From Candidatus Nomurabacteria bacterium (GTDB lineage: Bacteria; Patescibacteriota; Minisyncoccia; Phycocordibacterales; UBA9973): a stretch of 64,000 nt of DNA. Location: the NCBI GenBank assembly GCA_023267195.1, contig JAHFNT010000004.1, positions 64,603 to 128,602 on the forward strand, read 5' to 3'. The translations under genes were made by a program, and so were the position numbers. Below are positions 5,595-37,008 of the stretch, piece by piece. How positions within the stretch are numbered: the stretch's first letter is position 1; each line of letters opens with the position of its first letter. Below the pieces are notes generated by a model. It did no database searches. It was not told the origin of the DNA and saw only the letters and a list, made by a program, of their open reading frames with translations.

Positions 5595-8155
<2,561 letters not shown>

Positions 8156-8156
8156 A

Positions 8157-8594: not shown

Positions 8595-8599
8595 AATTT

Positions 8600-9217: not shown

Positions 9218-9243
9218 TTGATTTGGTGCAACTAGCTTGAATT

Positions 9244-9935: not shown

Positions 9936-10724
9936 CTAAAAAAGATGCAGTTCAAAAATGAATGATAAAAATACACCCACGGCTAAATAAGGAGCAAAAG
10001 GAAGTTCGCTTTTAAATCTGTATTTTTTGGAAAAAATAATAAGAAATAAACCAATAACAGACCCAATCCAGAAACTCAACACTGCGCCGGAAAGAGCTAG
10101 GGGAAAACCAAGGAGCCATCCTAATCCAACCATAAGTTTGGCATCTCCGAGACCCATCCATCTCCCCTTCGATATCAACCAGAATAAGGCAAAACAGATA
10201 GCAATCAGTAATGGATAAAAGAATTCTGCAACAGATGGAAGATGCGGATAAAAAGCGGGAAAAAATGATCGATCAAACAAAAACAACCCTATAAATGCCA
10301 AAAAACCAAAACCAAATGAAAGAATATCAGGAATTATTTTATGTTTTAAATCATAAACAGAAATTACTAGCAAAAGTGAAAATGCAACTGCGTAATAGGC
10401 ATACGTGGCAGTGAAAGATAGGGTTGAAAAAAGGAAAGTATTTTGAAATTTTAAAAACAAAGCGGCAAAAACAACTCCAGTCGCCAGCTCAACCATAGGA
10501 TACTGAATGGATATTTTGGTTTTACAAGTGCGGCATCTACCTCTTAGTCCTAAAAAACTGACAACTGGAATAAGTTCGTACCAAGAAAGCTTGTTTTGGC
10601 AAGACATGCAAGCACTCCTCCCCCCGAAAGACTTTTGGGTATTGAATCGAAAAATCACAACGTTCAAAAAGCTCCCGATGATAAGACCAAAAACAAAGAA
10701 AATAATTGTGAGAATTGGAATCAT
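9936..10724 (-). CDS. pilD: Prepilin peptidase (A24 family) PilD
   Basis: GSFLNVVIFRF, a tetra-Cys region (CMSCQNKL...CRTCK), a YPMVE motif and multiple transmembrane segments. Confidence 0.9.
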   Translation of the reverse strand: MIPILTIIFFVFGLIIGSFLNVVIFRFNTQKSFGGRSACMSCQNKLSWYELIPVVSFLGLRGRCRTCKTKISIQYPMVELATGVVFAALFLKFQNTFLFSTLSFTATYAYYAVAFSLLLVISVYDLKHKIIPDILSFGFGFLAFIGLFLFDRSFFPAFYPHLPSVAEFFYPLLIAICFALFWLISKGRWMGLGDAKLMVGLGWLLGFPLALSGAVLSFWIGSVIGLFLIIFSKKYRFKSELPFAPYLAVGVFLSFIFELHLF

Positions 10725-10742
10725 ATTCTAACTAAAAAAAAA

Positions 10743-11180
10743 TTAAGGGCACACGGTATTTCCCGCACCGAGCACATTCGTTCCTATTTTCATGATGGCC
10801 GTGTAATCTATGCAGGCATATTGTGTCGGATCTTCTTTGAGCTGAACTTGAGCTGCCCATTGATTTGTGCTACTACCCACCGTATGCACAGTTGTTTGAC
10901 TATCTAGAAAAGTTAAAATGGCTTGGATATTTACACTTGCAGAAGCCCAGGTATTATTACTGGTAAATAAATTATTATAAGAATTGCCATTACCAATAGC
11001 ATACAGCTCAGCCTCAGATCGCAGGGAAGCCATTTGCTCTTTAATGGCAGAATCTTTTCCTTTTTTCTGTGCACTAGAAAGCATTCCTATGACAATGGTG
11101 GCTAAAATTCCTATAATACCAACAACAACTAAGAGCTCCATTAAGGTAAATCCCTTTTTAAATATTTTTATATTTTTCAT
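10743..11180 (-). CDS. Type IV pilin (PilA-like)
   Basis: MKNIKIFKKG|FTLMELLVVVGIIGILATIV N-terminal methylation domain. 145 aa. Confidence 0.85.
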   Translation of the reverse strand: MKNIKIFKKGFTLMELLVVVGIIGILATIVIGMLSSAQKKGKDSAIKEQMASLRSEAELYAIGNGNSYNNLFTSNNTWASASVNIQAILTFLDSQTTVHTVGSSTNQWAAQVQLKEDPTQYACIDYTAIMKIGTNVLGAGNTVCP

Positions 11181-11223
11181 AAAATTAAATAATTAATAAT
11201 TGCTACCATTATACCATAAAAAC

Positions 11224-11256
11224 AAAAACCACCCCAGGAAGGTGGTTTTTGTTTTT
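11224..11256. terminator. Bidirectional rho-independent terminator between the two pilin genes
   Basis: aaaaaccacc-ccaggaa-ggtggttttt, with an A run before and a T run after. Confidence 0.6.
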
Positions 11257-11273
11257 AAGAAAAATTCCCAAAA

Positions 11274-11708
11274 TTATGAAGCCGGACAAACAACTACTGT
11301 TGCACCTATTGCTGCAGAAACAGCATGAGAAGCCCCAGCTGAATCTACACACCAATGGCCAGAAGACTTAAGCGGTGATGAAATAGCCCACGAGCTAGCA
11401 GCTCCTGAGGCCGGCTTACCACAAACAGCTGTACCACCCGAAGCCGTGTTAGCAGCAGCGATAGCAGAAGCAATTGTTGCGTTTTGCGTTACGCTGTTTG
11501 CTCCGCACACAGCATCATAGTCTCCATCTGTATCATAAATCAACTCTGCTTGAGCACGAGTGTTTGCCAAGTTTGCCTTTACGGCAGCATCAGCCCCTTT
11601 TGCACGCGCAGTATTGAGCGAAGCCAAAACAACAGAAGCAAGAATACCAATAATGGCAACAACCACTAAGAGTTCAATCAACGTAAAACCTTTTTTAAAA
11701 TTCTTCAT
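11274..11708 (-). CDS. Type IV pilin (PilA-like major pilin candidate). Has C-terminal Cys pairs.
   Basis: MKNFKKG|FTLIELLVVVAIIGILASVV. 144 aa. Confidence 0.85.
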   Translation of the reverse strand: MKNFKKGFTLIELLVVVAIIGILASVVLASLNTARAKGADAAVKANLANTRAQAELIYDTDGDYDAVCGANSVTQNATIASAIAAANTASGGTAVCGKPASGAASSWAISSPLKSSGHWCVDSAGASHAVSAAIGATVVVCPAS

Positions 11709-11875
11709 ACTTTTAAAATTAATTAATAATAATTTATAATCACGCCTCCCCGGCGTTTCAGCCGGTTAAGCTGAATATTTTCGACTTATTTTTAATATGC
11801 TTATTATATCATAAGGATAATAATCTATAAGCAACAAAGTTATCCACACCTGCCTGCGGCGGGTAGAGATAAATT

Positions 11876-22902: not shown

Positions 22903-22992
22903 TGGCGGAGAGAGAGGGATTCGAACCCTCGGTCCTTTTAAGGGGACGACAGTTTAGTAAACTGTTGGTTTAAACCACTCACCCATCTCTCC
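22903..22992 (-). tRNA. tRNA, Ser-type architecture (long variable arm, G73, encoded CCA). Anticodon loop TTACTAA gives anticodon ACU as read, which is unusual.
   Basis: Acceptor GGAGAGA/TCTCTCC, D stem GGT/ACC, anticodon stem ACAGT/ACTGT, T arm GAGGG-TTCGAAT-CCCTC (identical to the tRNA-Ser(GGA) T arm). Confidence 0.6.
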
Positions 22993-23067
22993 CTATTTGT
23001 TTTTGAGTATAACAGAATCATGGAAAAATACTAATAATATGCTAAAGTAGTTAAGTTATTAAATGAA

Positions 23068-23124
23068 AAAGGAGCCGTGTCAGAGCGGTCTAACGTACCT
23101 CTTTGCTAAAGAGGCAGGGGCTTC
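23068..23124 (+). repeat. Left attachment repeat: a 57-bp direct repeat identical to the 5' half (positions 1-54 plus 3 nt upstream) of tRNA-Ser(GCU) at 35862
   Basis: aaaggagccgtgtcagagcggtctaacgtacctctttgctaaagaggcaggggctt occurs at 23068-23124 and at 35859-35915, then diverges. Confidence 0.8.
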
Positions 23125-23260: not shown

Positions 23261-24154
23261 ATGGAAATGCGAGCTTTGTGTCAGCAGTTTTATGATTATT
23301 CATTATCAATTCGTGGTTACTCCAAAGACACGATTAAAAGATATAAATTTACATTAGACTTCTATTGTAAGTTTGCAAACATAACCAATATCAACCAAGT
23401 TTCAGTTGAAAATGTTCGTGCGTTATTTTTTAATGGGAGGTCGGAGCGTAATTGGTCGGTCCATACATTTCTTGTTTACCACAGATCGTTATGTGTATTT
23501 TTCCGCTGGTGTATAGGCCAAGGACTAATAACAAAAAATCCCATAAACGAGATAGAGAAACCAAAACTAGAAAAAAGATTACCCTCAAAACTTACAAAAC
23601 AGGACGCCTTTCGTCTGCTTGAAATAGTTTATAACTATCCATGGCAAAACAAATTCTTGCGTTACAGGAATCATGCCATGTTTGCTACTTTTGTCTTTTG
23701 CGGTTTAAGAAAGAATGAATTATTGAAATTAAAATACACTGATGTAGATATTGATAATCTCACAATATTCATTAAACAAGGGAAAGGATCTAAGGACCGA
23801 ATCTTGCCCATGAGCCCAACGCTAGCAATAATCCTTACGAAATATTTAGAAGAGAGGATGAAACACCAAAAAACATGTCCAGAGTTTTTTGCTTCGCTCC
23901 ACAGAAACACAGGATTAACTTACGGAGGTTTAAGAGACATAGCAGTAATGATTCGCAAATCTTCAAAGATAAACTTTACTATTCACAAACTGAGGCATAG
24001 TTTCGCTTGTATGTTACTTCAAAATGGATGCGATATATATTCACTTTCTCGACTCATGGGCCATTCAGATATTTCCACTACTGCCATATATCTTTCAGCT
24101 TCAGCAGACCATTTACGCTTACAGATGGCGAAACATCCACTTAATGACATTTAG
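23261..24154 (+). CDS. Tyrosine recombinase / integrase (XerC/XerD-phage integrase family)
   Basis: 297 aa. N-terminal SAM-like core-binding domain. C-terminal catalytic region with R...HxxR...Y (KLRHSFACMLLQNG...LMGHSDISTTAIYL). Confidence 0.85.
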   Translation: MEMRALCQQFYDYSLSIRGYSKDTIKRYKFTLDFYCKFANITNINQVSVENVRALFFNGRSERNWSVHTFLVYHRSLCVFFRWCIGQGLITKNPINEIEKPKLEKRLPSKLTKQDAFRLLEIVYNYPWQNKFLRYRNHAMFATFVFCGLRKNELLKLKYTDVDIDNLTIFIKQGKGSKDRILPMSPTLAIILTKYLEERMKHQKTCPEFFASLHRNTGLTYGGLRDIAVMIRKSSKINFTIHKLRHSFACMLLQNGCDIYSLSRLMGHSDISTTAIYLSASADHLRLQMAKHPLNDI

Positions 24155-24280: not shown

Positions 24281-25363
24281 TTAAAAACCATCTTTAAATT
24301 CAGGGGGCAAAGGCAACGGGAGAAAGAAGAATTTTTCATTGTGAGTTGTTCCGTCTGATATCACAGAAAGTCCTTCTGCTTGTACCTTATCCCAAGTCTT
24401 TGATTTAATTGATTTTACTTCCTCCATTTCTTTTAGGACTTTTCTTAAAGTATGTTCCCCAATAATATCAGCAGATATAAAACCTTTGATGTTGATTCCT
24501 TTACCTCCTTGGTCCTCCAGTAGTTTAATTATCTTTTCAACTACTTTGCTATGTGAATTTTGATTATACTCACCCTCGTAAATAAATGGACTACCCTCAC
24601 CTTTGAGGTTAATAAGAAGACGGAAAGGTTCCATTTTCTTTGCTCCTTTTAATTTTGCTTGTCTGATTATAAGGTATTCTTGTCCATCTTCTTTTTTTGG
24701 TTCTAAACTAAGATGGCCATGTACCGCAGCGTTAATTGCTGTACTTCCACGACTGTCTTCACTATCGCTATTATTATTTTTGAACATATTTTTTTTGCGA
24801 TTGTGATGAGTAAATAGTACGGCTATTCCTGAATTTGTTATTTTCTTTATTTGATCCATTATCTTTTGCATTTCTGTGGCACTGTTTTCTTCTGCATCGT
24901 GGACACTTCTAAGAGAATCTAGAATAATAAAACCGACACCTTTGCCTTTTGCTATAGAGATAATTTGATCTACTGTGCCGTTATCTAATTTTATCTGATT
25001 TTGTATAGAAAAATATATTGATGTTTCGGGCCATTTATTACTTAAGGTATTCATTCTGTCTTTTATTTCAGCTTCAATATCTTCTTCGTTGATAATCCAA
25101 ACTTTTAGTGGTTCACTTACTTCAAAGAAGCCAAATAGAGGTGACCCAATGGCTATCGATATTGCTATGTCTAATGTTAACCAACTTTTATAGTTATTTG
25201 GAGCGGCACTTAGCATGTTCATTGTGTCACTCTGAAATAGTTTATCTATAATCCATTTTGGCTTGATAATCTTTTTCTCACTTAGTTCTTTTGCTGTTAG
25301 TATATTTATGATGTTTTTAGGATGTTCTTGTTGTATTATTTTTGGTTGTTCTAATAAATTCAT
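24281..25363 (-). CDS. AAA_25 / RepA-like RecA-fold ATPase (plasmid/phage replication or helicase-loader type)
   Basis: 360 aa. Degenerate P-loop region (APNNYKSWLTLDIAISIAIGSPLFG), Walker B GFIILDSLRSV and SRGSTAINAAVHGHLSL, typical of AAA_25. Confidence 0.55.
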   Translation of the reverse strand: MNLLEQPKIIQQEHPKNIINILTAKELSEKKIIKPKWIIDKLFQSDTMNMLSAAPNNYKSWLTLDIAISIAIGSPLFGFFEVSEPLKVWIINEEDIEAEIKDRMNTLSNKWPETSIYFSIQNQIKLDNGTVDQIISIAKGKGVGFIILDSLRSVHDAEENSATEMQKIMDQIKKITNSGIAVLFTHHNRKKNMFKNNNSDSEDSRGSTAINAAVHGHLSLEPKKEDGQEYLIIRQAKLKGAKKMEPFRLLINLKGEGSPFIYEGEYNQNSHSKVVEKIIKLLEDQGGKGINIKGFISADIIGEHTLRKVLKEMEEVKSIKSKTWDKVQAEGLSVISDGTTHNEKFFFLPLPLPPEFKDGF

Positions 25364-27035: not shown

Positions 27036-27770
27036 TTAAAAGCTAAACCATCCTTTTAATCTGGTCCAAAAGCTTTTTGGTTTTTCTTCTGTCGTAGCAG
27101 GAATTTTAATATTTTGATTGGTAATAGTGGGAGTGCTTTCTTTAACTTCTAGTACCTTTTTAACTACAGGAGTTTTTGTTTTTGTTTCTGTCTTTGAAAT
27201 AGGTACAGTGCCACTTCCACCACCACTTGGGAGTTGGTAACTTGTTTCTGTGGGTTTTGAGTTATTTATTTGTACTGGTTGAGGAACAATACACTCAGTT
27301 TTATTTGTATTCCACTCGTAACCACTCTTGCAGTCGCAAATTATGCTTCCTCCACCAATATATAGTCCATTCCATACACTATTTGCCCCATATTTATTAG
27401 GACAGGCTTGATTATTTGTTAAAGACTGTTGTTGAAACTTTTGGTTGTATTGTTGATTTCGTTGTAATTCCAACTGCTGGCGTTGGATATCTAATAGTTG
27501 TTGCTGATATTGCTGTCGTTGCTGTAATAATTTTTGTTGATTTTGTTGTTGTATAAGAGCGTCAAGTCTATCACCAGGTTGGGGAGCAATTTGTATATAT
27601 AAAGGGTTAAGCGATCCACCTGGATAAATTGTTCCATAAGCGTTAACGCTAAAAACAGGCAATGAAAAAATTACTGAAACTAATACAAAAATTATTTTGT
27701 TTTTCATATTTCGCGTAGGTTTTAATTGATAATAGCGAGAACAAAAAAGGTCTCGCGACACAGACGGCAA
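27036..27770 (-). CDS. Secreted Gln-rich coiled-coil protein with C-terminal Cys-containing domain, hypothetical
   Basis: Signal peptide and a Q-rich tract (QQQNQQKLLQQRQQYQQQLLDIQRQQLELQRNQQ). Confidence 0.45.
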   Translation of the reverse strand: MPSVSRDLFCSRYYQLKPTRNMKNKIIFVLVSVIFSLPVFSVNAYGTIYPGGSLNPLYIQIAPQPGDRLDALIQQQNQQKLLQQRQQYQQQLLDIQRQQLELQRNQQYNQKFQQQSLTNNQACPNKYGANSVWNGLYIGGGSIICDCKSGYEWNTNKTECIVPQPVQINNSKPTETSYQLPSGGGSGTVPISKTETKTKTPVVKKVLEVKESTPTITNQNIKIPATTEEKPKSFWTRLKGWFSF

Positions 27771-28250
27771 TTCCTTTCGAAATTGTCACTAGGCTATTTC
27801 TAGCCTAGACCTACGCGAATAGTGTCTGGTCACGAGACCATCTTTATTCGCGTAGGCTTTCATATTTGCACCATGCCATTTCTGGTTTAGGTGTTGTATT
27901 CATATAATACCTCCATTTAACTAATATCACAAATGCAAAATGTACCTAATTTCAAAGCTATTTTCTGAATTTTCTGGGCGATATTTTTTCATAGGCTTGT
28001 TTTCACAAAACCAAATTATTCCAAACAACCCCTATGACCTTTTTCAGTTTTGGGTTCCAGGACAGGCGTGGGTATGTTAACCCCATACGGGTAATTGTAA
28101 GGAATTATTGATTCAAGCCACTGCCCCCATGCCTTATTTTAAATATAGTTATTAGCTCATCAAAACTAAGCTAGTGAGATTAGGTCGAATATATAAGTCT
28201 CAAGATACGAGTTAGTCTCTCGTACAAATTAAATCTATTAAATTAACAAT
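27771..28250. promoter_or_regulatory. Divergent intergenic region of the island with nested inverted repeats. Candidate control or origin region.
   Basis: Hairpin ctaggct-atttct-agcctag. Palindrome tacgcgaata...tggtcacgagacca...tattcgcgta. No ORF. Confidence 0.4.
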
Positions 28251-28577
28251 ATGAAAGCATTAAGTATAAAAGAAATATTAGAGGATGATTCTATTACTTC
28301 TAATTATCAAGGTAGTGAAAAAACCAAAGAGATGGTGGAAGAACAGATCAGAAAAATATATGGAGATAGCGAAGTAAAGAATTACAACCCATATAAAAAT
28401 GCTCTGACTTTCGCTTCATGGATCCGTCTAGGTTATAGACCAAAGAAAGGCAGTAAGGCGCTAAAAAGTATCACTTATGTCGAAAAGAAAGATGCTCAAG
28501 GAAATGTAATTGAAAAATATCCACGCAAAATAAATCTATTTTATTATCGTGCAGTGGAACCAATAAAAGCTAATTAA
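28251..28577 (+). CDS. Hypothetical protein (island cargo)
   Basis: 108-aa ORF, first gene of the plus-strand pair after the divergent region. Confidence 0.4.
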   Translation: MKALSIKEILEDDSITSNYQGSEKTKEMVEEQIRKIYGDSEVKNYNPYKNALTFASWIRLGYRPKKGSKALKSITYVEKKDAQGNVIEKYPRKINLFYYRAVEPIKAN

Positions 28578-29231: not shown

Positions 29232-29290
29232 GCAGTAATTAAGCAGTTTATGCACAGTAAAGTGGTAAACTGCTTTTTTATTTTAGCTGC

Positions 29291-30991
29291 TTAAAAAATA
29301 TTTGGCAATTTCTTCAATTCACTAAGTAATTCAACGATTGATATTGTATGATGGGGAATCTTTTCTTTTGTAGCGATATGCTTAAACATACCCTCAAGCC
29401 TAGGTTGAATACTGGGAGCAGAAAATATTCCTTCTATAAAATAAGTCTCTCCTATTTTTTTCTGAAGATTCATTATGTGATCGTGAACTGAAGCACCTTC
29501 TGCAGACCACTGCATGGCATTGGCCCTAATAGTTGTTAATTCAAGCACATATGCCTTTTTCTTAATAAAGAAATAAATATCTGGATATCCCTCTTTACCA
29601 CCCAGGGCTGGGTACATTATGCCGAATTCGTCAACCCGTCCATTCCAAATTACATCATCTATTAATCCAAGGTCCTTATACTTTTTTAGTAGTTGAAAAA
29701 ATAAATACTCTAGACGTCCACCTCTAAGCTGTCCTGGATTAAAGTTTGTTTTACCTGTTATCAACCCTACCATATTTATATGATGTGCATATTCAGTGTC
29801 ATAATCATGGCTGTTAATATGATTTAAAATCTTTTCTTCTATTACCTCTTGAGTATCTTCTTTGTATATATTTTGTGGGATGTCTTTTAGAAGAAAATCT
29901 ATTTTGTCAGATTTAATTTGTTTTTGTTCTGAATGGAATAATTCTGCCTTAGTGAAATTAAAGAAATCAAATCGACAGTTTTCTCCTTCAAAAAGAGCTG
30001 TACTGAAATTAGAGGATGCAGAAACCACCCCTGAACTTATTTCTTTATTATCTTTGTTATATATACGTATAAAAGATTTTTCTAATAAGTTAGTAGATAT
30101 ATTTACTAGTAATGGTGGTTTAGTTCTTTTAAAGTCTCCAAAGTAATCAATCCAAAGCATTAAATTATCTCCGAAATCGAATGGTTTTATATCTTTATAT
30201 TTTTCTAAAATAGAGTGGACTTCAGTAATTTTTTCTTCTTTTATATATAAATTATTATTCTTTCGTTCACATAATCCTGTTGCGACACAAAGACCAATAT
30301 AGTAACCAGCAGTTGGGGCTTGTACTAATGTTAGGTTGCCAATTTCTGTATTTTTAAATGCTTCTATCTCAGCACTTCTTCTTTCTTCTGGAAGATGTCT
30401 AAAGGTCTTTATTTTCTCTACAATTAAATTGTATTCATCCTCTTTCTTCATTGAAAAAACTATATAACCTAACTCTTCTTTAGAAATAAAGGTTAGGTCC
30501 AGTAGAAGTTTTAATGTAATACGAAATGGAAACAAGAGAATATTAAGGCAGTCTTCTCTTATAACAGGATTAGTAATTTGTAATTTACTCATTTGACGTT
30601 CAACTATGGTAGATTCCAGAACTTCTTGGCCGTTTGCTGACACAACATTCAGATTTTTACCTAATCCAAGCACTGAACCATGCTTTTTTATTAGTTCAAA
30701 ACCAGCGTTAGTGACATTAATTGTTGAAGGAGTTGTTGTATTATCAATCACAATAAAACCCAAATATTTAATCAGCGCTTCAAGAGTTCTTCTTGCTGAG
30801 GGGGATAAAGGTTTTCCTCTCTCAGTTAGGCCGTATCTTCCTAAAAGGGTATTAAAGTTTTCTTGCTTCATCGAGTTCCAAGATTTTCCGTTAAAATTAT
30901 CAGTAGATAAAATTTCGACAGCACCAATTATCTGATGTATATTTTGTCGTTTTGGAATATGCCAAATTTCTAAACTTCTTGTTCTTGTCAT
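29291..30991 (-). CDS. Putative restriction endonuclease, possibly Type IIS / AlwI-family-like, with a C-terminal PD-(D/E)xK-like core
   Basis: 566 aa. Last gene of the MTase-MTase-X operon, 4 nt after the MTase stop. C-terminal GGRLEYLFF...GYPDIYFFIKKKAYVLELTT resembles a PD...(D/E)xK nuclease core. No MTase motifs. Confidence 0.35.
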   Translation of the reverse strand: MTRTRSLEIWHIPKRQNIHQIIGAVEILSTDNFNGKSWNSMKQENFNTLLGRYGLTERGKPLSPSARRTLEALIKYLGFIVIDNTTTPSTINVTNAGFELIKKHGSVLGLGKNLNVVSANGQEVLESTIVERQMSKLQITNPVIREDCLNILLFPFRITLKLLLDLTFISKEELGYIVFSMKKEDEYNLIVEKIKTFRHLPEERRSAEIEAFKNTEIGNLTLVQAPTAGYYIGLCVATGLCERKNNNLYIKEEKITEVHSILEKYKDIKPFDFGDNLMLWIDYFGDFKRTKPPLLVNISTNLLEKSFIRIYNKDNKEISSGVVSASSNFSTALFEGENCRFDFFNFTKAELFHSEQKQIKSDKIDFLLKDIPQNIYKEDTQEVIEEKILNHINSHDYDTEYAHHINMVGLITGKTNFNPGQLRGGRLEYLFFQLLKKYKDLGLIDDVIWNGRVDEFGIMYPALGGKEGYPDIYFFIKKKAYVLELTTIRANAMQWSAEGASVHDHIMNLQKKIGETYFIEGIFSAPSIQPRLEGMFKHIATKEKIPHHTISIVELLSELKKLPNIF

Positions 30992-30995
30992 AAAA

Positions 30996-32291
30996 TTATT
31001 TTTTAAAAATTAATACATAATCTTTTGGAATAAAGCCTCCTCGACCAAATCTAGGTATTCGTAAATATCTATTTCTAATTATATAAGCAAATTCTAACTC
31101 TTTTGTATATCCTATTGTTTTTGCAATTTTTGAAATTATACTCGATGTATTTACATCAAACCCTCTTATTTTACTATTACCAACAACCATACAATAATGA
31201 CCTCCTTTTTGAAGACAGCTAAAAACGCTTTTTAGGTTTTCTTCCATTGCTCTAAAATACTCAAGGACAACCCAAGCTCTTTTTTTATCAATCAAATATA
31301 TATTATATAACACAGAATCAAGATCTTTGATTCCATATACAGGAATTTCTTTACCCACTTTTACTTTTTCTGAACCCACTTGGTGATTATAAAGCTCATC
31401 TAATTTTTTCTTATTAAAACCATCAAGCCAAAAATTTTCTAATTTCAACGACCTTACATAATCAAATGCATTTATATAGGGAGGCGATGTCATTGCTAGG
31501 TTAATCTTATTTAGATATAAAGACTTATCATCAATATTTCTCGCATCAAATCCAATTATTCTGGCTTCGGCTTTCGAAACTTTAGAAAATTGATCAATAG
31601 CACTTATATATTTCACTAAAGTTTTATAGAACTCATCAAAAACCACCATATGGTCCTTCTTTATTCTAGTTGATATGTAAGGTTTAGGTGATTGATTATC
31701 TGCCTTAGAGACTTTTCTTATAATTGATACTAAAACAATCTCTAAAAAGTTTTTTACTTTTTTATTTTTGTATTTAAAATAATTTGATTGAATTAAATAT
31801 CGAATAAGTGCTAAATCATTTATTGTAACTTCGGAAAACCAGTATTCAATAAGATCTCTTTCGGGAATACATTTTTCTATCTTATTTTTTAACTTGAGTG
31901 GATTTTTTATTGAATTTTTATAGTCAACAATGAATTGATCAATTATAAAAAGTTCTTTTTTTAACAATGGTGTCGTTTTAACACTACTTAAAAGCTTACT
32001 TAATGGATCAATATCCACACCATAACTTGGATATCCTAATAATACTGCTTCAACTAGTGTCGTTCCAGATCCCATAAAAGGGTCCAGTATTCCATATTTT
32101 TTTGTATTTTCTGATGCATAGTTTTCTATAAACCATCTAGGAATGTGAGGTATAAACTTACACGGATATTTAAAAATTCCATGGGTAAAATCTGATATAC
32201 CAACAGCTTTTATTAAAAATACATCCCCACTGTTTGGCTTAGATGGTATTTGTGTTACCTCTATAATTTTTTCTTGGTTATCTTTGCCCAT
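30996..32291 (-). CDS. DNA amino-methyltransferase (N4-cytosine or N6-adenine). Motif I DPFMGSGTT is followed after ~190 aa by motif IV SPPY.
   Basis: DPFMGSGTTLVEA (AdoMet binding) and MTSPPYINAFDY (catalytic). The order I...TRD...IV suggests an alpha-class enzyme, and SPPY favours m4C. Confidence 0.7.
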   Translation of the reverse strand: MGKDNQEKIIEVTQIPSKPNSGDVFLIKAVGISDFTHGIFKYPCKFIPHIPRWFIENYASENTKKYGILDPFMGSGTTLVEAVLLGYPSYGVDIDPLSKLLSSVKTTPLLKKELFIIDQFIVDYKNSIKNPLKLKNKIEKCIPERDLIEYWFSEVTINDLALIRYLIQSNYFKYKNKKVKNFLEIVLVSIIRKVSKADNQSPKPYISTRIKKDHMVVFDEFYKTLVKYISAIDQFSKVSKAEARIIGFDARNIDDKSLYLNKINLAMTSPPYINAFDYVRSLKLENFWLDGFNKKKLDELYNHQVGSEKVKVGKEIPVYGIKDLDSVLYNIYLIDKKRAWVVLEYFRAMEENLKSVFSCLQKGGHYCMVVGNSKIRGFDVNTSSIISKIAKTIGYTKELEFAYIIRNRYLRIPRFGRGGFIPKDYVLIFKK

Positions 32292-32292
32292 T

Positions 32293-33645
32293 TTATTTCT
32301 TCTCTAAATAGATAATACTTTCTCTTAAATATTTGCCGTATTTTTTGGTTTCTTCGTACTGCTGAGAACTAGTTATAATATTACGAGCAACATTTATAGA
32401 TGATACATTAAAACCAAGATGTTTAGCGAATTTCGCTAATAATAAGTCGGTTGGAACAACTATTCCACCATATGCAGAATTACTCACAATAATTACACAA
32501 AAACCTTTTTTCTTTAATGCTTGATATATTTCTGTAAGAGAATGAAACATATCATTAAAATAGGCTTCTACCATTTTTGGTATTCTTTTATCCCAAAGTT
32601 CTTTCTGGGAAAGTTCCGTTACAAGTGTTCCTAACTCTGGTACACTTTTTACTGCAATTTTTGATTCTATCTCATAACCATTCAAATGAGATCTGATGCC
32701 TCTTTTTCTTAGGATTTTTAAATCTGAATATTCTTTCACAAAAGATCCCATCCAGAGTTCTACTTTATATATTTCTGTATAATCAAAACAGTTAGCATAT
32801 GGTGGAGAAAATATAACTCCTTTTACTGAATTCTTCTTTGTGTATTTGTTTAAATTAAAACAGGTGTCTTCTATTACGGAAGTACTTACTTGATTGGATA
32901 TATTAATGGCAAATTCTAAATCCTCACCGATTTTTTTTAATGCGTTAAAAAATATTTTCTTTACATACTCCTTATCTCTAATTGTTTTCTTTATCGTCTT
33001 ACGAATTTTTAATCCGTTACCAGCTTTTCTATAGTTTGATGATTCTTCAAGAATTCCTAACCACGCTAACATTATTAAATCAGCAACCCTCTTATTTTTT
33101 ATTTGCTTAATTTCTTCTTTAATTGTTAAAAGATAAAATAACGCATCTTTTTTAAAAAGTTGTTCAATTGTTGAAAGTTTAGGAATATCAATATTTTGTT
33201 TTTTCTTTATATTGTGAAGCTCAGAAACATTTTCGTAAAAAGAAATCATGTCCTGTTTTTTGTAGTCTTGAGTCTTTACCTTTGCTAAAAATGCAGAAAA
33301 GGGATTTATCTCAAATCCGATACTATTACATTTATTTATTTTTGCTTGCAAAAGAGTACTTCCACTACCACAAAATGGATCGACGATTAAATCACCATCC
33401 TTAACATTGTATTTAGTAAGAATTTTGTCAACTAATTTAATTGAGTAGCCTTCTTTATATCTATACCATCTTTGTATGGGAAGGTTTAAGTCAGAGGCAT
33501 AATTAACAAGACTCTTGTATGTTGTAGAGTTTGTCTTCGGATAATCTACTTTAAATTCTTTTTCTAAAGTGACTAAAAATTTATCATTAAAATTCGGCAT
33601 GTAAAGTACATTCATTTTAGCATTTATTTTACAAATTCTAAACAT
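32293..33645 (-). CDS. DNA amino-methyltransferase, paralogous architecture (motif I DPFCGSGST, motif IV SPPY)
   Basis: DPFCGSGSTLLQA and IFSPPYANCFDY. 1-nt gap to the downstream MTase. Start may be Met11. Confidence 0.7.
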   Translation of the reverse strand: MFRICKINAKMNVLYMPNFNDKFLVTLEKEFKVDYPKTNSTTYKSLVNYASDLNLPIQRWYRYKEGYSIKLVDKILTKYNVKDGDLIVDPFCGSGSTLLQAKINKCNSIGFEINPFSAFLAKVKTQDYKKQDMISFYENVSELHNIKKKQNIDIPKLSTIEQLFKKDALFYLLTIKEEIKQIKNKRVADLIMLAWLGILEESSNYRKAGNGLKIRKTIKKTIRDKEYVKKIFFNALKKIGEDLEFAINISNQVSTSVIEDTCFNLNKYTKKNSVKGVIFSPPYANCFDYTEIYKVELWMGSFVKEYSDLKILRKRGIRSHLNGYEIESKIAVKSVPELGTLVTELSQKELWDKRIPKMVEAYFNDMFHSLTEIYQALKKKGFCVIIVSNSAYGGIVVPTDLLLAKFAKHLGFNVSSINVARNIITSSQQYEETKKYGKYLRESIIYLEKK

Positions 33646-33714
33646 TATCTAATTTTTTACTACAAAATACGACTTTTGGGTTACTTTTTGGCCTTTTTAT
33701 GTGATAATTAGCTT

Positions 33715-35493
33715 ATGAAAATTCAGAGAGTCAAAATCCATAACTGGAGGTCAATAAAAAACATAGACATCTCTTTTGAGAATCTTATGGTTTTTATAGG
33801 CCAGAATAACCACGGGAAATCTAATATTCTTTCAGCCTTGCTCTTTTTCTTCGGTGTAAACAATTGCGTAGAGTTAGATTTTAACAAAGGAGAAGATCAG
33901 ATATTTATTGAGGTAACTTTTATTGATTTAGATGACCACGATAAGGCCCAATTTGCTAAGTATCTTACAAGTGAAAGTTCTATAACTGTAAGAAAACAAA
34001 TAAATAAGGGAGAGTCTTTTGAGTATCACGGTTACTGTCAGATTCCAGGAGAAGATTGGCTAAAAGAAGAGAATATTTCCAACTATGCAACCAGAGAAGC
34101 AATAAACAATACTCCACTAAGTTCACTGGTCCCTTCAACTGGACGGTTAACAAAAGAAATTATTAAGCAAGCGCAACAAGACTATATACAAAAAAATAAT
34201 AGCTCAATAAAATTTTCATATAACTTAGAAGCAACAAATTTTTTAGGATTAAAAAGTGTTGCCCAGGGTATTTTTGGGGAAGTATTTTTTGTTCCTGCAG
34301 TGAAAAATGCAGGTGAAGAGTTCAACATGAAAGGTAAATCTGTATTTAACCAGTTGCTGACAAATGTGATTAACGATATGTCAATCTCAAATCCAGAATA
34401 TATAGAAGTTAAAAAGAAAGTTAGAGAGCTAACACAAATACTTAATAAAAATATTGAAGATGGTTCTCTGAATAATAATAGACCAGAACAAATATCAAAA
34501 TTAGAGAAATTACTTGAGGCAGAATTAGCTAGTTGGAATACTACAATTGATATAGAAATAACTCCACCAGATGTAGATGAAGTATTAAGAGTTGGTACCA
34601 ATGTATGGTTAAATGATGGAGTTCCAACCGATGTAAATCGTAAGGGTAATGGATTACAGAGATCCTTAATCTTTGCACTCATAAAGGCTTGGGCAAAGAT
34701 ATCTCAAGAAGAAAGAAATAAACAAGAAGAACAAGAGGAAGGAGGTACTGCTCGCAAAGCCTCAAAATCAACATTTTTTATTTTTGAAGAACCAGAGTTA
34801 TATTTACATCCTCAGGCACAGCGAGAACTTTATTCTTCACTTAAAAAACTTTCAGAAAATGACAACCAAGTTCTAATTACTACACATTCAAGTTCTTTTA
34901 TTGATCTAGACTTATATAGATCCATTTGCATAGTTTATAAAAATGATATCAAGGAAGGGACCAAGCATTTACAATGTACATCAGATCTATTCAATTCAGT
35001 TGATGACAAGAAAAAGTTTAATATGACTTATTGGATTAATCCAGACAGAGGAGAATTATTTTTTGCTAAGAAGATAATATTAGTTGAAGGTCCCACTGAT
35101 AAGACTGTCGTACCATATTTAGCAAAAAAATTGGATGTGTTTCGCTATGATTACAGTGTCATAGATTGTGGAGGAAAAACCAACATTCAAATTTATATAC
35201 ATTTGTTAAATAATTTTAAATTAAAATATATTGCAGTATATGACAAAGATCATCAAAGTTATAAAACTCCTGATGCTATAGCTTCTGCAGACATAGCCTC
35301 AAAATCAATTGAAGACAATATAAATTCTTCTTACGGAGCATCTATAATTTTAGAAAATGACATAGAAGAAGAGATAGGTATTACTGATGAAAATAACAAA
35401 AATAAACCATATGTTGCCCTCGAACACATTTCAGACACTTCTTTTGTGTTAAGCTCAAGCCTAGAAGAAAAGATTAAAAAAATATTTTTGTAA
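33715..35493 (+). CDS. OLD-family ATP-dependent nuclease: N-terminal ABC ATPase plus C-terminal Toprim (GajA/class-1 OLD-like)
   Basis: N-terminus IHNWRSIKNIDISF..FIGQNNHGKSNILSAL (AAA_15/21 type). Walker B/D-loop FIFEEPELYLHP. C-terminal Toprim ILVEGPTDKTV...IDCGGK...YDKD. Confidence 0.7.
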   Translation: MKIQRVKIHNWRSIKNIDISFENLMVFIGQNNHGKSNILSALLFFFGVNNCVELDFNKGEDQIFIEVTFIDLDDHDKAQFAKYLTSESSITVRKQINKGESFEYHGYCQIPGEDWLKEENISNYATREAINNTPLSSLVPSTGRLTKEIIKQAQQDYIQKNNSSIKFSYNLEATNFLGLKSVAQGIFGEVFFVPAVKNAGEEFNMKGKSVFNQLLTNVINDMSISNPEYIEVKKKVRELTQILNKNIEDGSLNNNRPEQISKLEKLLEAELASWNTTIDIEITPPDVDEVLRVGTNVWLNDGVPTDVNRKGNGLQRSLIFALIKAWAKISQEERNKQEEQEEGGTARKASKSTFFIFEEPELYLHPQAQRELYSSLKKLSENDNQVLITTHSSSFIDLDLYRSICIVYKNDIKEGTKHLQCTSDLFNSVDDKKKFNMTYWINPDRGELFFAKKIILVEGPTDKTVVPYLAKKLDVFRYDYSVIDCGGKTNIQIYIHLLNNFKLKYIAVYDKDHQSYKTPDAIASADIASKSIEDNINSSYGASIILENDIEEEIGITDENNKNKPYVALEHISDTSFVLSSSLEEKIKKIFL

Positions 35494-35861
35494 ATTGAGT
35501 ATGATATCTCTGCAAGAATTTAAGGATGCTCTGGGTGATGAGGCGACAAAACTTACTGAGGAAGAAATACTTAAGCTAAGAGACAATATGGATAAGATGG
35601 CTGACATCTTTTTTACTATGTGGCTGGAAGAAAGAAAGAAGTAAATCAATAGTATTATTGATAATTTAGCGGAAAATCTGCTATTATGAGTTAGTCGAAT
35701 TTTATTATCAAATTAACATGCTTGCGTGTAGTTTTAGATGGTTATTTATGCTCGTTTTTGGCTAAAGAGGTAGGTCATCAAAAACGGGTAGATTTTCACT
35801 TTTTGGGTCCTAAAATCTGAGCAAATCGGATTTAACCCTTGATTTACAAGACTTAATAAAA

Positions 35862-35950
35862 GGAGCCGTGTCAGAGCGGTCTAACGTACCTCTTTGCTAA
35901 AGAGGCAGGGGCTTTAAAACCCCTCGGCGGTTCGAATCCGCCCGGCTCCG
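35862..35950 (+). tRNA. tRNA-Ser (anticodon GCU). Long variable arm, G73, CCA not encoded. This is the integration target of the island.
   Basis: Acceptor GGAGCCG/CGGCTCC, anticodon stem CCTCT/AGAGG with loop TTGCTAA, variable arm GGGGCTTTAAAACCCC, T arm GGCGG-TTCGAAT-CCGCC. Confidence 0.8.
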
Positions 35951-35988
35951 CAAATAAGTTTTGTTATAATAACTTACATAAAACCAAA

Positions 35989-37008
35989 ATGGATAAAGGA
36001 CCAAAAATAAGAATAGTTGGTGGAACTTCCGAAGAGAAAAAAGCAGAAACACGACAAAGGATAAGGAGTAACCTTTTTAATCATCTTGCGTCCATGCCTG
36101 AAAACGAAAGAGGAGATTTTGAAAAATTTGAATATGCTAAATATCCAATAGAAATTGAAATGATTCATTTAGCCAACGAAGAAACTTCCCACCTAATGCA
36201 AGAAGCTGGAATGGAACCTTATGATGTGCCAGTGGAAAATATTCATATAATTCCTCCAGAGCTTTATGAAAAAATAACTGGAACCAAGAAAGCTGGAAGA
36301 ACTAATAGAGTTAAAGAAGTCATAATTCTAAATTCTGCATATTTAGATAGTCCCGTAGCTTTCTACTCCCATATTGTACATGAATTATTGCACCTGAAAG
36401 CTCACTTATCCATCGAAGTTCAAGAAACAGGGGGCGTTCATACAGATGAAACAGTGTATCGTAAAGGTGTAACGGTTTTAGCATCACAACATAGAGAAAG
36501 AAAAGTAGGGTTTCATAAATATCTTGAAGGACTACATGAAGCCATTGTAGCGGAAACAGAAAAAAGATTAGTACTAAAACTACTTGATCAATCTCCACTC
36601 AAGAAAGAAAAAGAGTGGCAATCTTCTGAAGAGGCGGTAAAATTAAAAAAGCAAATTGCAAAAGAAAGTGGTGTATCTGAAGAAGATATTATTTGGATTG
36701 ATGCAGAGGACAAAACCAAATTTGAGATAGGAAGTTATAACTCACAGAGGAAAGTACTAAACTTTGTTTGTACTGAGATATACAAAAAATTTGGAGAGCA
36801 ATTCAAAAGTGTAGATGATGTATATAAATTATTTTTAAATGTAAATTTCACTGGACAACTTTTGCCAATTGCTCGCCTTATCGAAAAAACTTTTGGAAAA
36901 GGAAGCTTTAGATTGTTGGGTAATATGGGCACAGACAAAGAAAGCGGGGTCTGGTGTTTGGAATTGCTAAAGGAGACACGTACACATCAGACAACAGCAA
37001 TGATCTAG
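35989..37008 (+). CDS. Hypothetical protein with HExxH motif (putative zinc-dependent peptidase)
   Basis: 339 aa. HELLH within SHIVHELLHLKAH. Confidence 0.4.
   Translation: MDKGPKIRIVGGTSEEKKAETRQRIRSNLFNHLASMPENERGDFEKFEYAKYPIEIEMIHLANEETSHLMQEAGMEPYDVPVENIHIIPPELYEKITGTKKAGRTNRVKEVIILNSAYLDSPVAFYSHIVHELLHLKAHLSIEVQETGGVHTDETVYRKGVTVLASQHRERKVGFHKYLEGLHEAIVAETEKRLVLKLLDQSPLKKEKEWQSSEEAVKLKKQIAKESGVSEEDIIWIDAEDKTKFEIGSYNSQRKVLNFVCTEIYKKFGEQFKSVDDVYKLFLNVNFTGQLLPIARLIEKTFGKGSFRLLGNMGTDKESGVWCLELLKETRTHQTTAMI

What the first reader, a model, noticed from the sequence alone, without database searches (positions are those of the whole stretch)
29291..35493. Compact defense locus on the island: MTase-MTase-nuclease operon back-to-back with an OLD-family ATPase-Toprim nuclease
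Three minus-strand genes are separated by only 1 and 4 nt: a 450-aa MTase, a 431-aa MTase and a 566-aa protein. Both MTases have motif I (DPFCGSGST / DPFMGSGTT) about 190 aa before motif IV SPPY. That order (I-TRD-IV) is alpha-class-like, and the SPPY tetrapeptide is typical of N4-cytosine methylation. Two strand-specific MTases plus one nuclease is the layout of Type IIS systems that recognise asymmetric sites. A gene divergent from the first MTase, 70 bp away, encodes a 592-aa protein with an N-terminal ABC-type ATPase (GQNNHGKSNILSAL, FIFEEPELYLHP) and a C-terminal Toprim domain (ILVEGPTD ... IDCGGK ... YDKD). This is the OLD / Gabija-GajA architecture, but no GajB-like helicase or other partner is present. 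The tight juxtaposition of an R-M-like module and a solitary OLD nuclease on a tRNA-integrated element suggests either a two-layer defense island or a functionally coupled, undescribed combination.
Basis: partly seen in the sequence, partly recalled or inferred. Interest (0 to 1): 0.8.

Follow-up and report, generated by a model that had tools for sequence, protein, structure and literature searches.

The report
R-M plus OLD nuclease defence island
A 12.8-kb mobile element inserted in a serine tRNA gene of a Patescibacteria-like genome carries two ordinary, separately mobile anti-phage modules side by side: a Type IIS restriction-modification operon of the AlwI family and a solitary OLD nuclease.

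Summary
All four ORFs, their 1-nt and 4-nt spacings and every quoted motif are present.

- **Domains.** There are two paralogous, permuted N6_N4 MTases (motif I about 190-200 aa before SPPY). There is an AlwI-family, FokI-like Type IIS endonuclease with its catalytic residues intact. There is an intact ABC-ATPase/Toprim OLD nuclease closest to Class 1.
- **Island.** The locus lies at the cargo end of a real integrated element. It is bounded by a perfect 57-nt direct repeat of the 5' part of tRNA-Ser(GCU), has a tyrosine integrase, and is 32.5% GC against 39-40% in the flanks.
- **Two modules.** Nucleotide homology splits the locus in two. The R-M cassette (29290-33625) recurs without OLD in two other genomes. 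The OLD module (33700-35646) recurs at 92% identity beside a different AlwI-family R-M.
- **Best reading.** This is a stacked two-layer defence island built from known kinds of system.
- **Open lead.** In the close OLD subclade, 9 of 16 loci have an R-M beside OLD, of six different types. In three loci OLD lies inside an R-M operon. Cooperation is therefore not excluded.

The recognition site and the methylated base remain unknown.

The parts
23067..23123 (+). Left border repeat (attL-like): displaced copy of 4 nt plus the first 53 nt of tRNA-Ser(GCU)
   Evidence: Perfect 57-nt direct repeat with 35858-35914. Sequence read.
23261..24154 (+). Tyrosine recombinase/integrase of the element (297 aa)
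   Evidence: Pfam Phage_integrase 2.6e-29 plus the N-terminal SAM-like domain. A 65%-nt homologue lies on the sister element L095.
24281..25363 (-). AAA_25 (RepA/DnaB-like) ATPase, element backbone (360 aa)
   Evidence: Pfam AAA_25 3.6e-25.
29291..30991 (-). Type IIS restriction endonuclease, AlwI/BstNBI family (566 aa). It has an N-terminal recognition region and a C-terminal FokI-like PD-(D/E)XK cleavage domain. Conserved residues are D471, E484, T486, E498 and H505.
   Evidence: Pfam RE_AlwI 36.7 bits against a cut-off of 23.1. PADLOC REase_II PDLC03422 1.8e-103, full length. The family profile hits Nt.BspD6I at 3.5e-7, collinear. Invariant residues. AF2 model pLDDT 87.3. Top PDB folds are Nt.BspD6I 1.4e-14 and FokI 4e-6.
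30996..32291 (-). M2: amino-MTase, permuted (motif I at residue 70, SPPY at 269), 431 aa
   Evidence: Pfam N6_N4_Mtase 2e-11. PADLOC MTase_II PDLC03362 3.4e-93, full length. 28% identical to M1. Motif positions.
32293..33645 (-). M1: amino-MTase, permuted (motif I at residue 89, SPPY at 280). The ORF is 450 aa, but the likely start is Met16 at 33600 (435 aa).
   Evidence: Pfam N6_N4_Mtase 6.5e-14. PADLOC MTase_II PDLC03224 4.6e-96. Homologues are 435 aa. Cassette homology ends at 33625.
33715..35493 (+). Class 1-type OLD nuclease: ABC ATPase (Walker A GQNNHGKS, Walker B FIFEEPE) plus Toprim (E458/G459/D462, D510/D512), 592 aa
   Evidence: Pfam AAA_15 3.5e-38, AAA_21 6.7e-20, OLD-like_TOPRIM 3.5e-18. 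PADLOC Old 1.2e-71. PDB 6p74 (TsOLD) 3.4e-23 against GajA about 5e-9. Fold search TsOLD 2.6e-15. P2 Old 25.8% identity, 8e-15. Invariant residues.
35501..35644 (+). 47-aa ORF that travels with OLD (function unknown)
   Evidence: Lies within the 92%-identical OLD module shared with L094/L095. 83% aa identity. No Pfam hit.
35858..35951 (+). Right border repeat (35858-35914) within the reconstituted tRNA-Ser(GCU) gene (35862-35951)
   Evidence: Direct repeat. ARAGORN. Rfam tRNA 42.7 bits.

Best explanation
A 12.8-kb integrative element (integrase, AAA_25 ATPase, small ORFs) inserted into the 5' half of tRNA-Ser(GCU). It carries two autonomous defence modules at one end.

**Module 1: a Type IIS R-M operon, M1-M2-R.** The inferred mechanism is as follows.
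- The two paralogous alpha-like amino-MTases each methylate one strand of an asymmetric site. SPPY suggests N4-cytosine.
- R is a FokI-like modular enzyme of the AlwI/PleI/BstNBI family.
- It binds the unmethylated site through its N-terminal domain.
- It cuts a few bases away with its C-terminal PD-(D/E)XK domain.
- A double-strand break would need transient dimerisation.

**Module 2: a solitary Class 1-type OLD protein with its own upstream region.** By analogy with P2 Old, TsOLD and Vc OLD, it would nick or degrade nucleic acid through its Toprim site under control of its ABC ATPase. That gives a second, independent layer of defence.

**Shown here.** Domain content, intact catalytic residues, element borders, and the separate mobility of the two modules.

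**Inferred.** All enzymatic activities, the methylated base, the recognition site, and the defence phenotype.
For: **Domains and full-length family matches.**

**REase.** The family profile is collinear with Nt.BspD6I, and PD...E.T...E...H is conserved. A confident model matches Nt.BspD6I, FokI and the BspD6I small subunit.

**R-M family coherence.** M1 homologues occur on contigs of the same lengths as REase homologues, down to about 45-50% identity. The published AlwI-family layout has two MTases (PMC9799307).

**OLD.** It is closest to Class 1 TsOLD by sequence and by fold. No helicase lies on the element and no RT domain was found among its ORFs.

**Element borders.**

**Modularity.**
- The R-M cassette 29290-33625 is 73-75% nt identical to L002 and L004. 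Those loci have no OLD within 10 kb.
- The OLD module 33700-35646 is 92% nt identical to L094/L095. There the divergent operon is a different AlwI-family R-M: DUF5655, a 253-aa N6_N4 MTase, a 289-aa D12 MTase and a 570-aa REase.
- Only 74 nt (33626-33699) separate the two homology blocks.

**Broad OLD clade.** Across 78 genomes the immediate neighbours fall into 98 different Pfam families. This fits a self-sufficient gene.
Against: No activity, methylation or phenotype data exist.

The Pfam RE_AlwI hit covers only residues 117-207. Single-sequence search against PDB finds nothing for the REase. Family assignment therefore rests on the profile, PADLOC and fold evidence.

R-M systems sit next to this OLD subclade more often than a purely independent model would suggest. 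This includes three loci where OLD is inside an R-M operon.

GGATC and GAGTC are not avoided in the window. That is uninformative for a recent insertion, but it gives no support either.
Confidence: 0.72

Rival explanations
1. Functional cooperation. The OLD nuclease works with the adjacent R-M rather than independently. It might degrade or convert nicked or cut DNA left by the Type IIS enzyme. Patescibacteria-type genomes may lack a RecBCD-like exonuclease (from memory, not tested). Alternatively it might act as a guard that fires when the R-M layer is evaded, by analogy with PARIS or P2 Old.
For: **Close OLD subclade (at least 64% identity).** Nine of 16 loci have R-M genes within two genes of OLD. 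They are of six unrelated or distantly related types.

**AlwI-family REases.** Four of these loci carry one: window, L095, L092 and L040.

**Operonic cases.**
- In L111 and L012, OLD lies between a BsaWI-type REase and a second MTase, with 1-4 nt gaps. The 4.4-kb unit is conserved at 83% nt in two genomes.
- In L040 the MTase and OLD genes overlap by 29 nt.

**Precedent.** OLD relatives can sense interference with host nucleases. P2 Old is activated by RecBC inhibition (PMC13261556).
Against: In this window the two modules are divergent and separately mobile, with sharp borders. The closest relatives of the R-M cassette lack OLD.

Across 78 genomes only about 8-9% of OLD genes have an R-M gene as immediate neighbour. 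No base rate for defence-island co-localisation was computed. R-M adjacency could simply reflect a shared element backbone with an R-M hot spot.
Confidence: 0.2
2. The modules mainly serve the mobile element. This could be post-segregational killing by the R-M, or exclusion of competing phages and elements by OLD as in prophage P2. Host immunity would then be secondary.
For: Both modules lie inside a recently integrated element with perfect 57-nt repeats. OLD is conserved as element backbone between the window and L095, while the R-M slot is exchanged. P2 Old is a prophage-encoded interference gene (PMC10568477). Relatives lie next to serine recombinases and on an ICE-like element.
Against: This reading is not exclusive of host defence, and nothing here tests it. 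The broad OLD clade is also found in apparently chromosomal contexts.
Confidence: 0.3
3. The 566-aa protein is a site-specific nicking enzyme like Nt.BstNBI or Nt.BspD6I, not a double-strand cutter.
For: The only solved relatives are the nickase Nt.BspD6I and its small subunit. The family contains natural nickases (PMC3017599, listed; family knowledge).
Against: The window has no gene for a small catalytic subunit next to R. The 163-aa ORF after R in L004 has no detectable similarity to a solved small subunit and is absent from the window and L002. AlwI, PleI and MlyI, from the same family, cut both strands (family knowledge). Sequence alone cannot decide.
Confidence: 0.15
4. The system is decayed. 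The MTases would be orphans beside an inactive endonuclease, or the OLD would be inactive.
For: None specific. Only the general frequency of degraded R-M systems in genomes.
Against: All four ORFs are full length relative to their homologues. Family-invariant catalytic residues are retained. The island appears recently acquired.
Confidence: 0.04

Closest known systems
AlwI-family Type IIS R-M systems with two MTases (for example the SfaNI-like Cal02329 system of Caldicellulosiruptor; family members AlwI, PleI, MlyI, BstNBI/BspD6I)
   Same: One endonuclease plus two strand-specific MTases in one operon (PMC9799307). RE_AlwI Pfam match. Collinear profile match and fold match to Nt.BspD6I with conserved catalytic residues.
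   Different: It is only distantly related to any characterised member. Single-sequence search finds no PDB hit, and Pfam covers only about 90 residues. The MTases are a permuted N6_N4 type with SPPY rather than DPPY. The recognition sequence is unknown, and neither GGATC nor GAGTC is avoided in the window.
Class 1 OLD nucleases (P2 Old, Thermus scotoductus OLD, Vibrio cholerae Vc OLD, E. coli YbjD/OldB)
   Same: A fused ABC ATPase-Toprim protein of about 590 aa with no helicase, retron or AriB partner. The best sequence and fold match is TsOLD. It is homologous to P2 Old. It is carried on a mobile element like P2 Old and Vc OLD (PMC12392090).
   Different: It is 18-26% identical to the characterised members. 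It belongs to a very conserved, uncharacterised clade, at least 50% identical from Patescibacteria to Vibrio and Flavobacterium. It lies directly beside another defence system, whereas reviews describe Class 1 as not proximal to other defence genes (PMC10568477).
Gabija (GajA/GajB)
   Same: GajA has the same ATPase-Toprim architecture. PADLOC GajA models hit at 1e-40 or weaker.
   Different: There is no GajB/UvrD-like helicase on the element. GajA matches are much weaker than the Old and TsOLD matches.
tRNA-targeting integrative elements / defence islands with exchangeable cargo (for example the P2 old / P4 hot spots)
   Same: Tyrosine integrase, tRNA target, direct repeats and low GC. One cargo slot is exchanged between sister elements while the neighbouring gene is kept.
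   Different: The duplicated segment is the 5' part of the tRNA gene, not the usual 3' part. The host is a Patescibacteria-type genome.

Membership tests
AlwI-family Type IIS restriction endonuclease | Match to the family profile above the curated threshold | tested here: met
   Pfam RE_AlwI 36.7 bits against a cut-off of 23.1, but only residues 117-207. PADLOC REase_II PDLC03422 1.8e-103 over residues 3-552. NCBI names relatives 'AlwI family type II restriction endonuclease'.
AlwI-family Type IIS restriction endonuclease | Modular architecture: N-terminal recognition domain plus C-terminal FokI-like cleavage domain, collinear with a characterised member | tested here: met
   The profile of 27 homologues hits Nt.BspD6I at 3.5e-7 in the N-terminal and C-terminal stretches, in order. 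AF2 model pLDDT 87.3. Foldseek gives Nt.BspD6I 1.4e-14, FokI 4e-6, ss.BspD6I 1e-5 and the BpuJI recognition domain 2.8e-4.
AlwI-family Type IIS restriction endonuclease | Conserved catalytic residues of the PD-(D/E)XK-type site | tested here: met
   D471, E484, T486, E498 and H505 are invariant in 27 homologues. They align with PD..E.T..E..H of Nt.BspD6I.
AlwI-family Type IIS restriction endonuclease | Asymmetric recognition site with cleavage outside it | not testable with these tools
   Needs enzymology or a methylome. K-mer avoidance in the window is uninformative: GGATC 1.17, GAGTC 0.82 observed/expected.
Type IIS R-M operon with two strand-specific MTases | Two separate MTase genes co-transcribed with the endonuclease, conserved as a unit | tested here: met
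   Gaps of 1 and 4 nt. The same M-M-R order occurs in L002-L006 at 73-75% nt identity. M1 and M2 are paralogues, 28% identical.
Amino (N6A/N4C) DNA MTases, alpha-like order | Motif I (FxGxG-type) and motif IV ((D/N/S)PP(Y/F)), with I before IV and a long insert between them | tested here: met
   Positions 89 to 280 in M1 and 70 to 269 in M2. The Pfam beta-ordered model matches only its motif-I end, at the N-terminus of both proteins.
N4-cytosine-specific MTases | The product is N4-methylcytosine | not testable with these tools
   SPPY is the usual m4C hallmark, but the motif rule has exceptions (PMC3425538; PMC10406627).
OLD family nucleases | N-terminal ABC ATPase with Walker A/B plus C-terminal Toprim with conserved acidic residues, in one polypeptide | tested here: met
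   AAA_15, AAA_21 and OLD-like_TOPRIM. Motifs located. K35, E358/E359, E458, D462, D510 and D512 are invariant or nearly invariant in 23 homologues. Aligned to TsOLD.
Class 1 OLD | [quoted passage not shown] | tested here: met
   ORF and Pfam inventory of the whole element. Rfam finds only tRNAs and a LOOT RNA. ATPase and Toprim are in a single polypeptide.
Class 1 OLD | Closer to Class 1 than to Class 2 or 3 proteins | tested here: met
   PDB phmmer: TsOLD 3.4e-23 against GajA about 5e-9. Foldseek: TsOLD 2.6e-15, GajA 1.9e-12, Eco8 1e-10, on a moderate model of pLDDT 69.8. PADLOC: Old 240 bits against GajA 137 bits or less.
Class 1 OLD | 'Single gene not proximal to other candidate defence genes' (as worded in PMC10568477) | tested here: not met
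   The gene is about 70-115 nt from an R-M operon. Many subclade relatives are also next to R-M. This is a descriptive generalisation rather than a mechanistic criterion. Schiltz et al. already noted 107/837 old genes in species-specific operons that include defence genes (PMC6755086).
Gabija | GajB (UvrD-like helicase) adjacent to GajA | tested here: not met
   No helicase on the element.
tRNA-integrated mobile element | Integrase, flanking direct repeats derived from the tRNA gene, and compositional contrast | tested here: met
   No empty site in a relative was examined.

The most novel reading that the evidence does not exclude
A subclade of Class 1-type OLD nucleases, mainly in Patescibacteria, is a recurrent and sometimes operonic partner of Type II R-M systems, especially two-MTase and AlwI-family Type IIS ones. 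The arrangements include M-R-OLD-M and M-R-M-OLD cassettes. The OLD would act downstream of, or as a back-up to, restriction. The window would then be one divergent-promoter version of an undescribed 'R-M plus OLD' composite defence.
Probability: 0.2. Interest if true: 0.7.

Novelty: new member of a known kind. Interest (0 to 1): 0.4.

Why it matters
As it stands the locus is a clean, well-delimited example of defence cargo on a small integrative element in a candidate-phyla-type genome. It supplies an uncharacterised AlwI-family Type IIS enzyme, possibly with a new specificity and a pair of SPPY alpha-like MTases. It also supplies a member of a very conserved but unstudied Class 1 OLD clade.

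How solitary OLD proteins defend is still an open question (PMC10568477, PMC12392090). If the recurrent OLD/R-M adjacency proved functional, it would give that question a concrete, testable context. It would also add a case of cooperation between restriction and a second nuclease.

Tried and rejected
- **Site avoidance.** I used it to guess the recognition sequence. GGATC (1.17) and GAGTC (0.82) are not avoided, and the island is probably too recent for any signal.
- **Single-sequence PDB search for the REase.** It gave no hit. A family profile was needed.
- **PDB and NCBIfam searches for the MTases.** They gave only motif-I-level hits and do not inform on base specificity.
- **Promoter and terminator scan of 29-36 kb.** It found fewer promoter-like sites than in shuffles and is uninformative.
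- **Viral-contig scans.** One REase relative and four OLD relatives turned up, too few to use.
- **Metagenome scan with the single OLD protein.** It gave only 12 loci, but these included the key sister element L094/L095.
- **Small nicking-enzyme subunit next to R.** None is present in the window. The 163-aa ORF after R in L004 has no informative match.
- **att repeats of the sister element in L095.** Not found within the fetched 21.8 kb.
- **The 339-aa ORF after the tRNA (35989-37008).** I considered it as the equivalent of the 343-aa OLD partner seen in Bacteroidota. It lies outside the element, has no Pfam family, and did not cluster with those proteins.
- **Gabija.** Rejected because no helicase is present.
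- **MADS and retron Eco8.** Rejected. The NCBIfam hits lie far below their cut-offs, and their best stretches cover only the N-terminal P-loop region.
- **Literature check for OLD in defence-island surveys.** PMC3632139 contains no mention of OLD or Toprim.

Full report

Yes. The ORF listing gives four genes:
- R at 29291-30991(-), 566 aa
- M2 at 30996-32291(-), 431 aa
- M1 at 32293-33645(-), 450 aa
- a divergent gene at 33715-35493(+), 592 aa

The gaps are 4 nt and 1 nt, as stated. All quoted peptide motifs are present at the stated relative positions. In M1, motif I is at residue 89 and SPPY at 280. In M2 they are at 70 and 269. In the 592-aa protein, Walker A is at 29, Walker B at 355, and the Toprim motifs at 456, 483 and 509.

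One correction concerns the M1 start. One gene caller used Met11 (440 aa). The close homologues are 435 aa, and nucleotide homology of the cassette to L002/L004 starts at 33625. The likely start is therefore Met16 at 33600, which makes the divergent intergenic region about 114 nt.

**2. What are the four proteins?**

Both MTases hit N6_N4_Mtase. The 566-aa protein hits RE_AlwI at 36.7 bits against a cut-off of 23.1, although only over residues 117-207. The 592-aa protein hits AAA_15, AAA_21 and OLD-like_TOPRIM. PADLOC gives full-length matches to a Type II REase model (1.8e-103), to two Type II MTase models (3.4e-93 and 4.6e-96), and to 'Old' as the best OLD-type model (1.2e-71, against GajA models at 1e-40 or weaker).

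*Endonuclease.* Because the Pfam hit was partial and a single-sequence PDB search found nothing, I built a family alignment of 27 homologues.
- Its profile hits the nickase Nt.BspD6I, the large subunit of the GAGTC-recognising BspD6I enzyme, at 3.5e-7. The match is collinear in the N-terminal and C-terminal parts.
- The family-invariant residues D471, E484, T486, E498 and H505 align with the PD..E.T..E..H catalytic stretch of that enzyme.
- An AlphaFold model (pLDDT 87.3) finds Nt.BspD6I (1.4e-14), FokI (4e-6), the BspD6I small catalytic subunit and the BpuJI recognition domain as best solved folds.

R is therefore a FokI-like modular Type IIS enzyme of the AlwI/PleI/BstNBI family, and it looks catalytically intact.

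*MTases.* M1 and M2 are paralogues, 28% identical over 345 aa. The Pfam model is beta-ordered (IV before I). It matches only its motif-I end, and that match sits at the N-terminus of both proteins. This confirms the permuted, alpha-like I-TRD-IV order. Homologues of M1 sit on contigs of the same lengths as homologues of R, down to about 45-50% identity, so M-M-R is a coherent R-M family. An AlwI-family endonuclease with two strand-specific MTases in one operon is a published architecture (PMC9799307).

*Methylated base.* It is not determined. SPP(Y/F) is the usual hallmark of N4-cytosine MTases (PMC3425538; PMC10406627). The same paper documents an m4C enzyme with DPPY, so the rule is not strict.

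*OLD protein.* It is full length, and Walker A, Walker B and the Toprim acidic residues are invariant across 23 homologues.
- Its best solved relative is the Class 1 OLD of Thermus scotoductus, both by sequence (3.4e-23 against about 5e-9 for GajA) and by fold (2.6e-15). The model is only moderately confident (pLDDT 69.8).
- It is 25.8% identical to P2 Old over residues 178-512.
- There is no helicase or reverse transcriptase on the element, and ATPase and Toprim are not split.

By context and by similarity it is a Class 1-type OLD.

**3. The island.**

A perfect 57-nt direct repeat links 23067-23123 and 35858-35914. The right-hand copy is 4 nt plus the first 53 nt of tRNA-Ser(GCU) at 35862-35951. 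A Phage_integrase-family recombinase at 23261-24154 lies next to the left repeat, followed by an AAA_25 ATPase. GC is 0.325 in the island, and 0.296 in the R-M, against 0.388 and 0.402 in the flanks.

This is a 12.8-kb integrated element with the R-M and OLD at its right end. Unusually, the 5' part of the tRNA gene is duplicated rather than the 3' part. Relatives of the proteins are annotated as Pacebacteria, Shapirobacteria and other Patescibacteria.

**4. One system or two?**

*Nucleotide homology splits the locus into two modules.*
- The R-M cassette, window 29290-33625, is 74.8% identical to L002 and 73.3% to L004. The borders fall at the gene ends. In those genomes the cassette has no OLD within 10 kb. 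It sits next to other defence-like genes: an Eco57I-like MTase, HNH and HATPase proteins in L002, and Mrr in L004.
- The OLD module, window 33700-35646, comprises OLD plus a 47-aa ORF. It is 92.2% identical to L094/L095, and the proteins are 98% identical.
- In L094/L095, similarity stops about 15-30 nt upstream of the OLD start codon. It keeps a TGnTATAAT-like element.
- L094/L095 is a sister element, with an integrase 65% identical at nucleotide level.
- There the divergent operon upstream of OLD is a different R-M: a DUF5655 protein, a 253-aa N6_N4 MTase, a 289-aa D12 MTase and a 570-aa RE_AlwI protein. That REase is only 23% identical to the window's R, in the C-terminal domain.

Only 74 nt in the window lie between the two homology blocks. 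Each module therefore exists without the other, and the R-M slot next to a conserved OLD gene has been exchanged. That is the behaviour of a defence hot spot on a mobile element.

*A broader sample points the same way.* One genome per species gave 80 loci of this OLD clade, 46-71% identical, from Patescibacteria to Vibrio, Flavobacterium and Campylobacter. The 150 immediate neighbours fall into 98 Pfam families. The commonest are KTSC (10), DUF2130 (4), N6_N4_Mtase (3), Mrr_cat (3) and HTH_3 (3). That pattern fits a gene that works on its own.

**5. The lead that remains.**

Within the subclade at least 64% identical to the window's OLD, R-M genes lie within two genes of OLD in 9 of 16 distinct loci. 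They are of six different types:
- AlwI type A: the window.
- AlwI type B: L095, and probably the P0124 contig.
- AlwI type C: L092, with a fused double D12 MTase, convergent with OLD.
- A two-MTase operon followed by 360-aa and 337-aa ORFs: P0123, and L007 where a serine recombinase lies between it and OLD.
- A BsaWI-type system: L111 and L012.
- A DpnII/MboI-type REase domain protein: L042.

In L111 and L012, OLD lies inside the operon (C/HTH, M, BsaWI REase, OLD, M) with 1-4 nt gaps. The 4.4-kb unit is 82.7% identical between two genomes with different flanks. In L040, an HTH-D12 MTase, an AlwI-family REase, an N6_N4 MTase and OLD are co-directional, and the last two overlap by 29 nt. Outside the subclade, OLD is next to Eco57I-type systems (L098, L017, L025, L037), an MTase-Mrr fusion (L021) and a Type I HsdM (L073).

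I could not compute a base rate for co-localisation of R-M with other defence genes on such elements. Several of these loci also share an element backbone. The excess is therefore suggestive and is not a demonstrated association. [quoted passage not shown] Schiltz et al. had already noted 107 of 837 old genes in species-specific operons that include defence genes (PMC6755086).

**6. Most likely mechanism.**

*R-M (inferred from family membership).* M1 and M2 each methylate one strand of an asymmetric site. R binds unmethylated sites as a monomer through its N-terminal domain. It cleaves at a fixed short distance with the C-terminal domain, and needs a second catalytic domain for the second strand. 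Whether it cuts both strands or only nicks cannot be told from sequence. No small-subunit gene is present.

*OLD (inferred from characterised Class 1 members).*
- TsOLD nicks and degrades DNA 5'-3' (PMC10568477).
- Vc OLD nicks DNA and blocks phage replication (PMC12392090).
- P2 Old is triggered by RecBC inhibition and cleaves tRNA (PMC13261556).

Which of these applies here is unknown.

*Shown versus inferred.* Shown here are domain content, conserved catalytic residues, element borders and module independence. Everything enzymatic is inferred.

**7. Comparison, novelty and score.**

Both modules are new members of known kinds. The endonuclease is a distant, uncharacterised branch of the AlwI family with SPPY alpha-like MTases, and may have a new specificity. 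The OLD belongs to a strikingly conserved but unstudied Class 1-type clade. The juxtaposition in this window is best read as stacking of two independent layers.

I score overall interest at 0.4. The locus itself is ordinary. The recurrent and sometimes operonic OLD/R-M association seen while checking it is a real lead on how solitary OLDs work. I give the coupled reading a probability of about 0.2.

Noticed in passing
L111:5031-9454 and L012:4193-8613: A four-gene co-directional cassette: HTH/C protein, 422-aa N6_N4 MTase, 222-aa BsaWI-type REase, 592-aa OLD and a 223-226-aa MTase, with 1-4 nt gaps. It is conserved at 82.7% nt identity in two genomes with different flanks. OLD sits inside an R-M operon.
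   Followed up: partly
L040:480-6150: An HTH-D12 MTase (435 aa), an RE_AlwI protein (604 aa), an N6_N4 MTase (275 aa) and OLD (588 aa) are all co-directional. The MTase and OLD genes overlap by 29 nt. The contig is from a Patescibacteria MAG.
   Followed up: partly
L015, L017, L028, L029, L032, L035, L039, L044, L050, L051, L078, L082 and others (around position 10001 of each locus): In Bacteroidota, Ignavibacteria and some other relatives, OLD sits in a tight three-gene unit. A roughly 71-aa KTSC-domain protein lies upstream, and a conserved 343-aa protein with no Pfam family lies downstream (13 loci). In 3-4 loci a DUF2130 protein takes the downstream place. This may be an undescribed multi-gene OLD system.
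   Followed up: partly
window 22903-22992 (-): A tRNA-Ser with anticodon ACT (A at position 34) lies just outside the island's left repeat and is divergent from tRNA-Ser(GCT). This is an unusual anticodon for the AGY codons.
   Followed up: no
window 23067-23123 / 35858-35914: The element duplicates the 5' part of the tRNA-Ser(GCU) gene rather than the usual 3' part. The functional tRNA therefore carries an element-derived 5' half and upstream region.
   Followed up: partly
whole window: CCWGG is the most under-represented 5-mer: observed/expected 0.53 in the whole window and 0.44 outside the island (z -5.4 and -6.2). This suggests past or present exposure to a CCWGG-specific restriction system elsewhere in the genome.
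   Followed up: no
window 27766-27893 (-): A match to the Rfam LOOT RNA (55.8 bits, gathering score 46.4) lies inside the island. It is immediately upstream of the 244-aa Q-rich, secreted-looking ORF at 27036-27770.
   Followed up: no
window 35501-35644 (+): A 47-aa ORF 7 nt after the OLD stop is conserved with OLD in L094/L095 (83% aa identity). It has no Pfam family. It could be a small partner or regulator.
   Followed up: partly
window 28251-28577 (+): A 108-aa island ORF has a weak, sub-threshold similarity to the N-terminal domain of the anti-restriction factor ArdC (E 0.029). A full ArdC-N protein lies on the ICE-like OLD-bearing locus L112.
   Followed up: no
L009/L011: OLD at 8001-9779 (L009) = 10001-11779 (L011); helicase at L009 10878-13274: In a Shapirobacteria MAG, the 71%-identical OLD has an HTH_3 gene upstream. 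A UvrD-like helicase (798 aa, with a TM2 domain) lies 1.1 kb downstream. This is a loose Gabija-like layout around a Class 1-type OLD.
   Followed up: no
P0255, P0295, P0331: Some M1 homologues carry N-terminal HTH_3 or MerR/excisionase-type HTH domains. This suggests autoregulating MTases in place of a separate controller protein. The window's M1 lacks such a domain.
   Followed up: no
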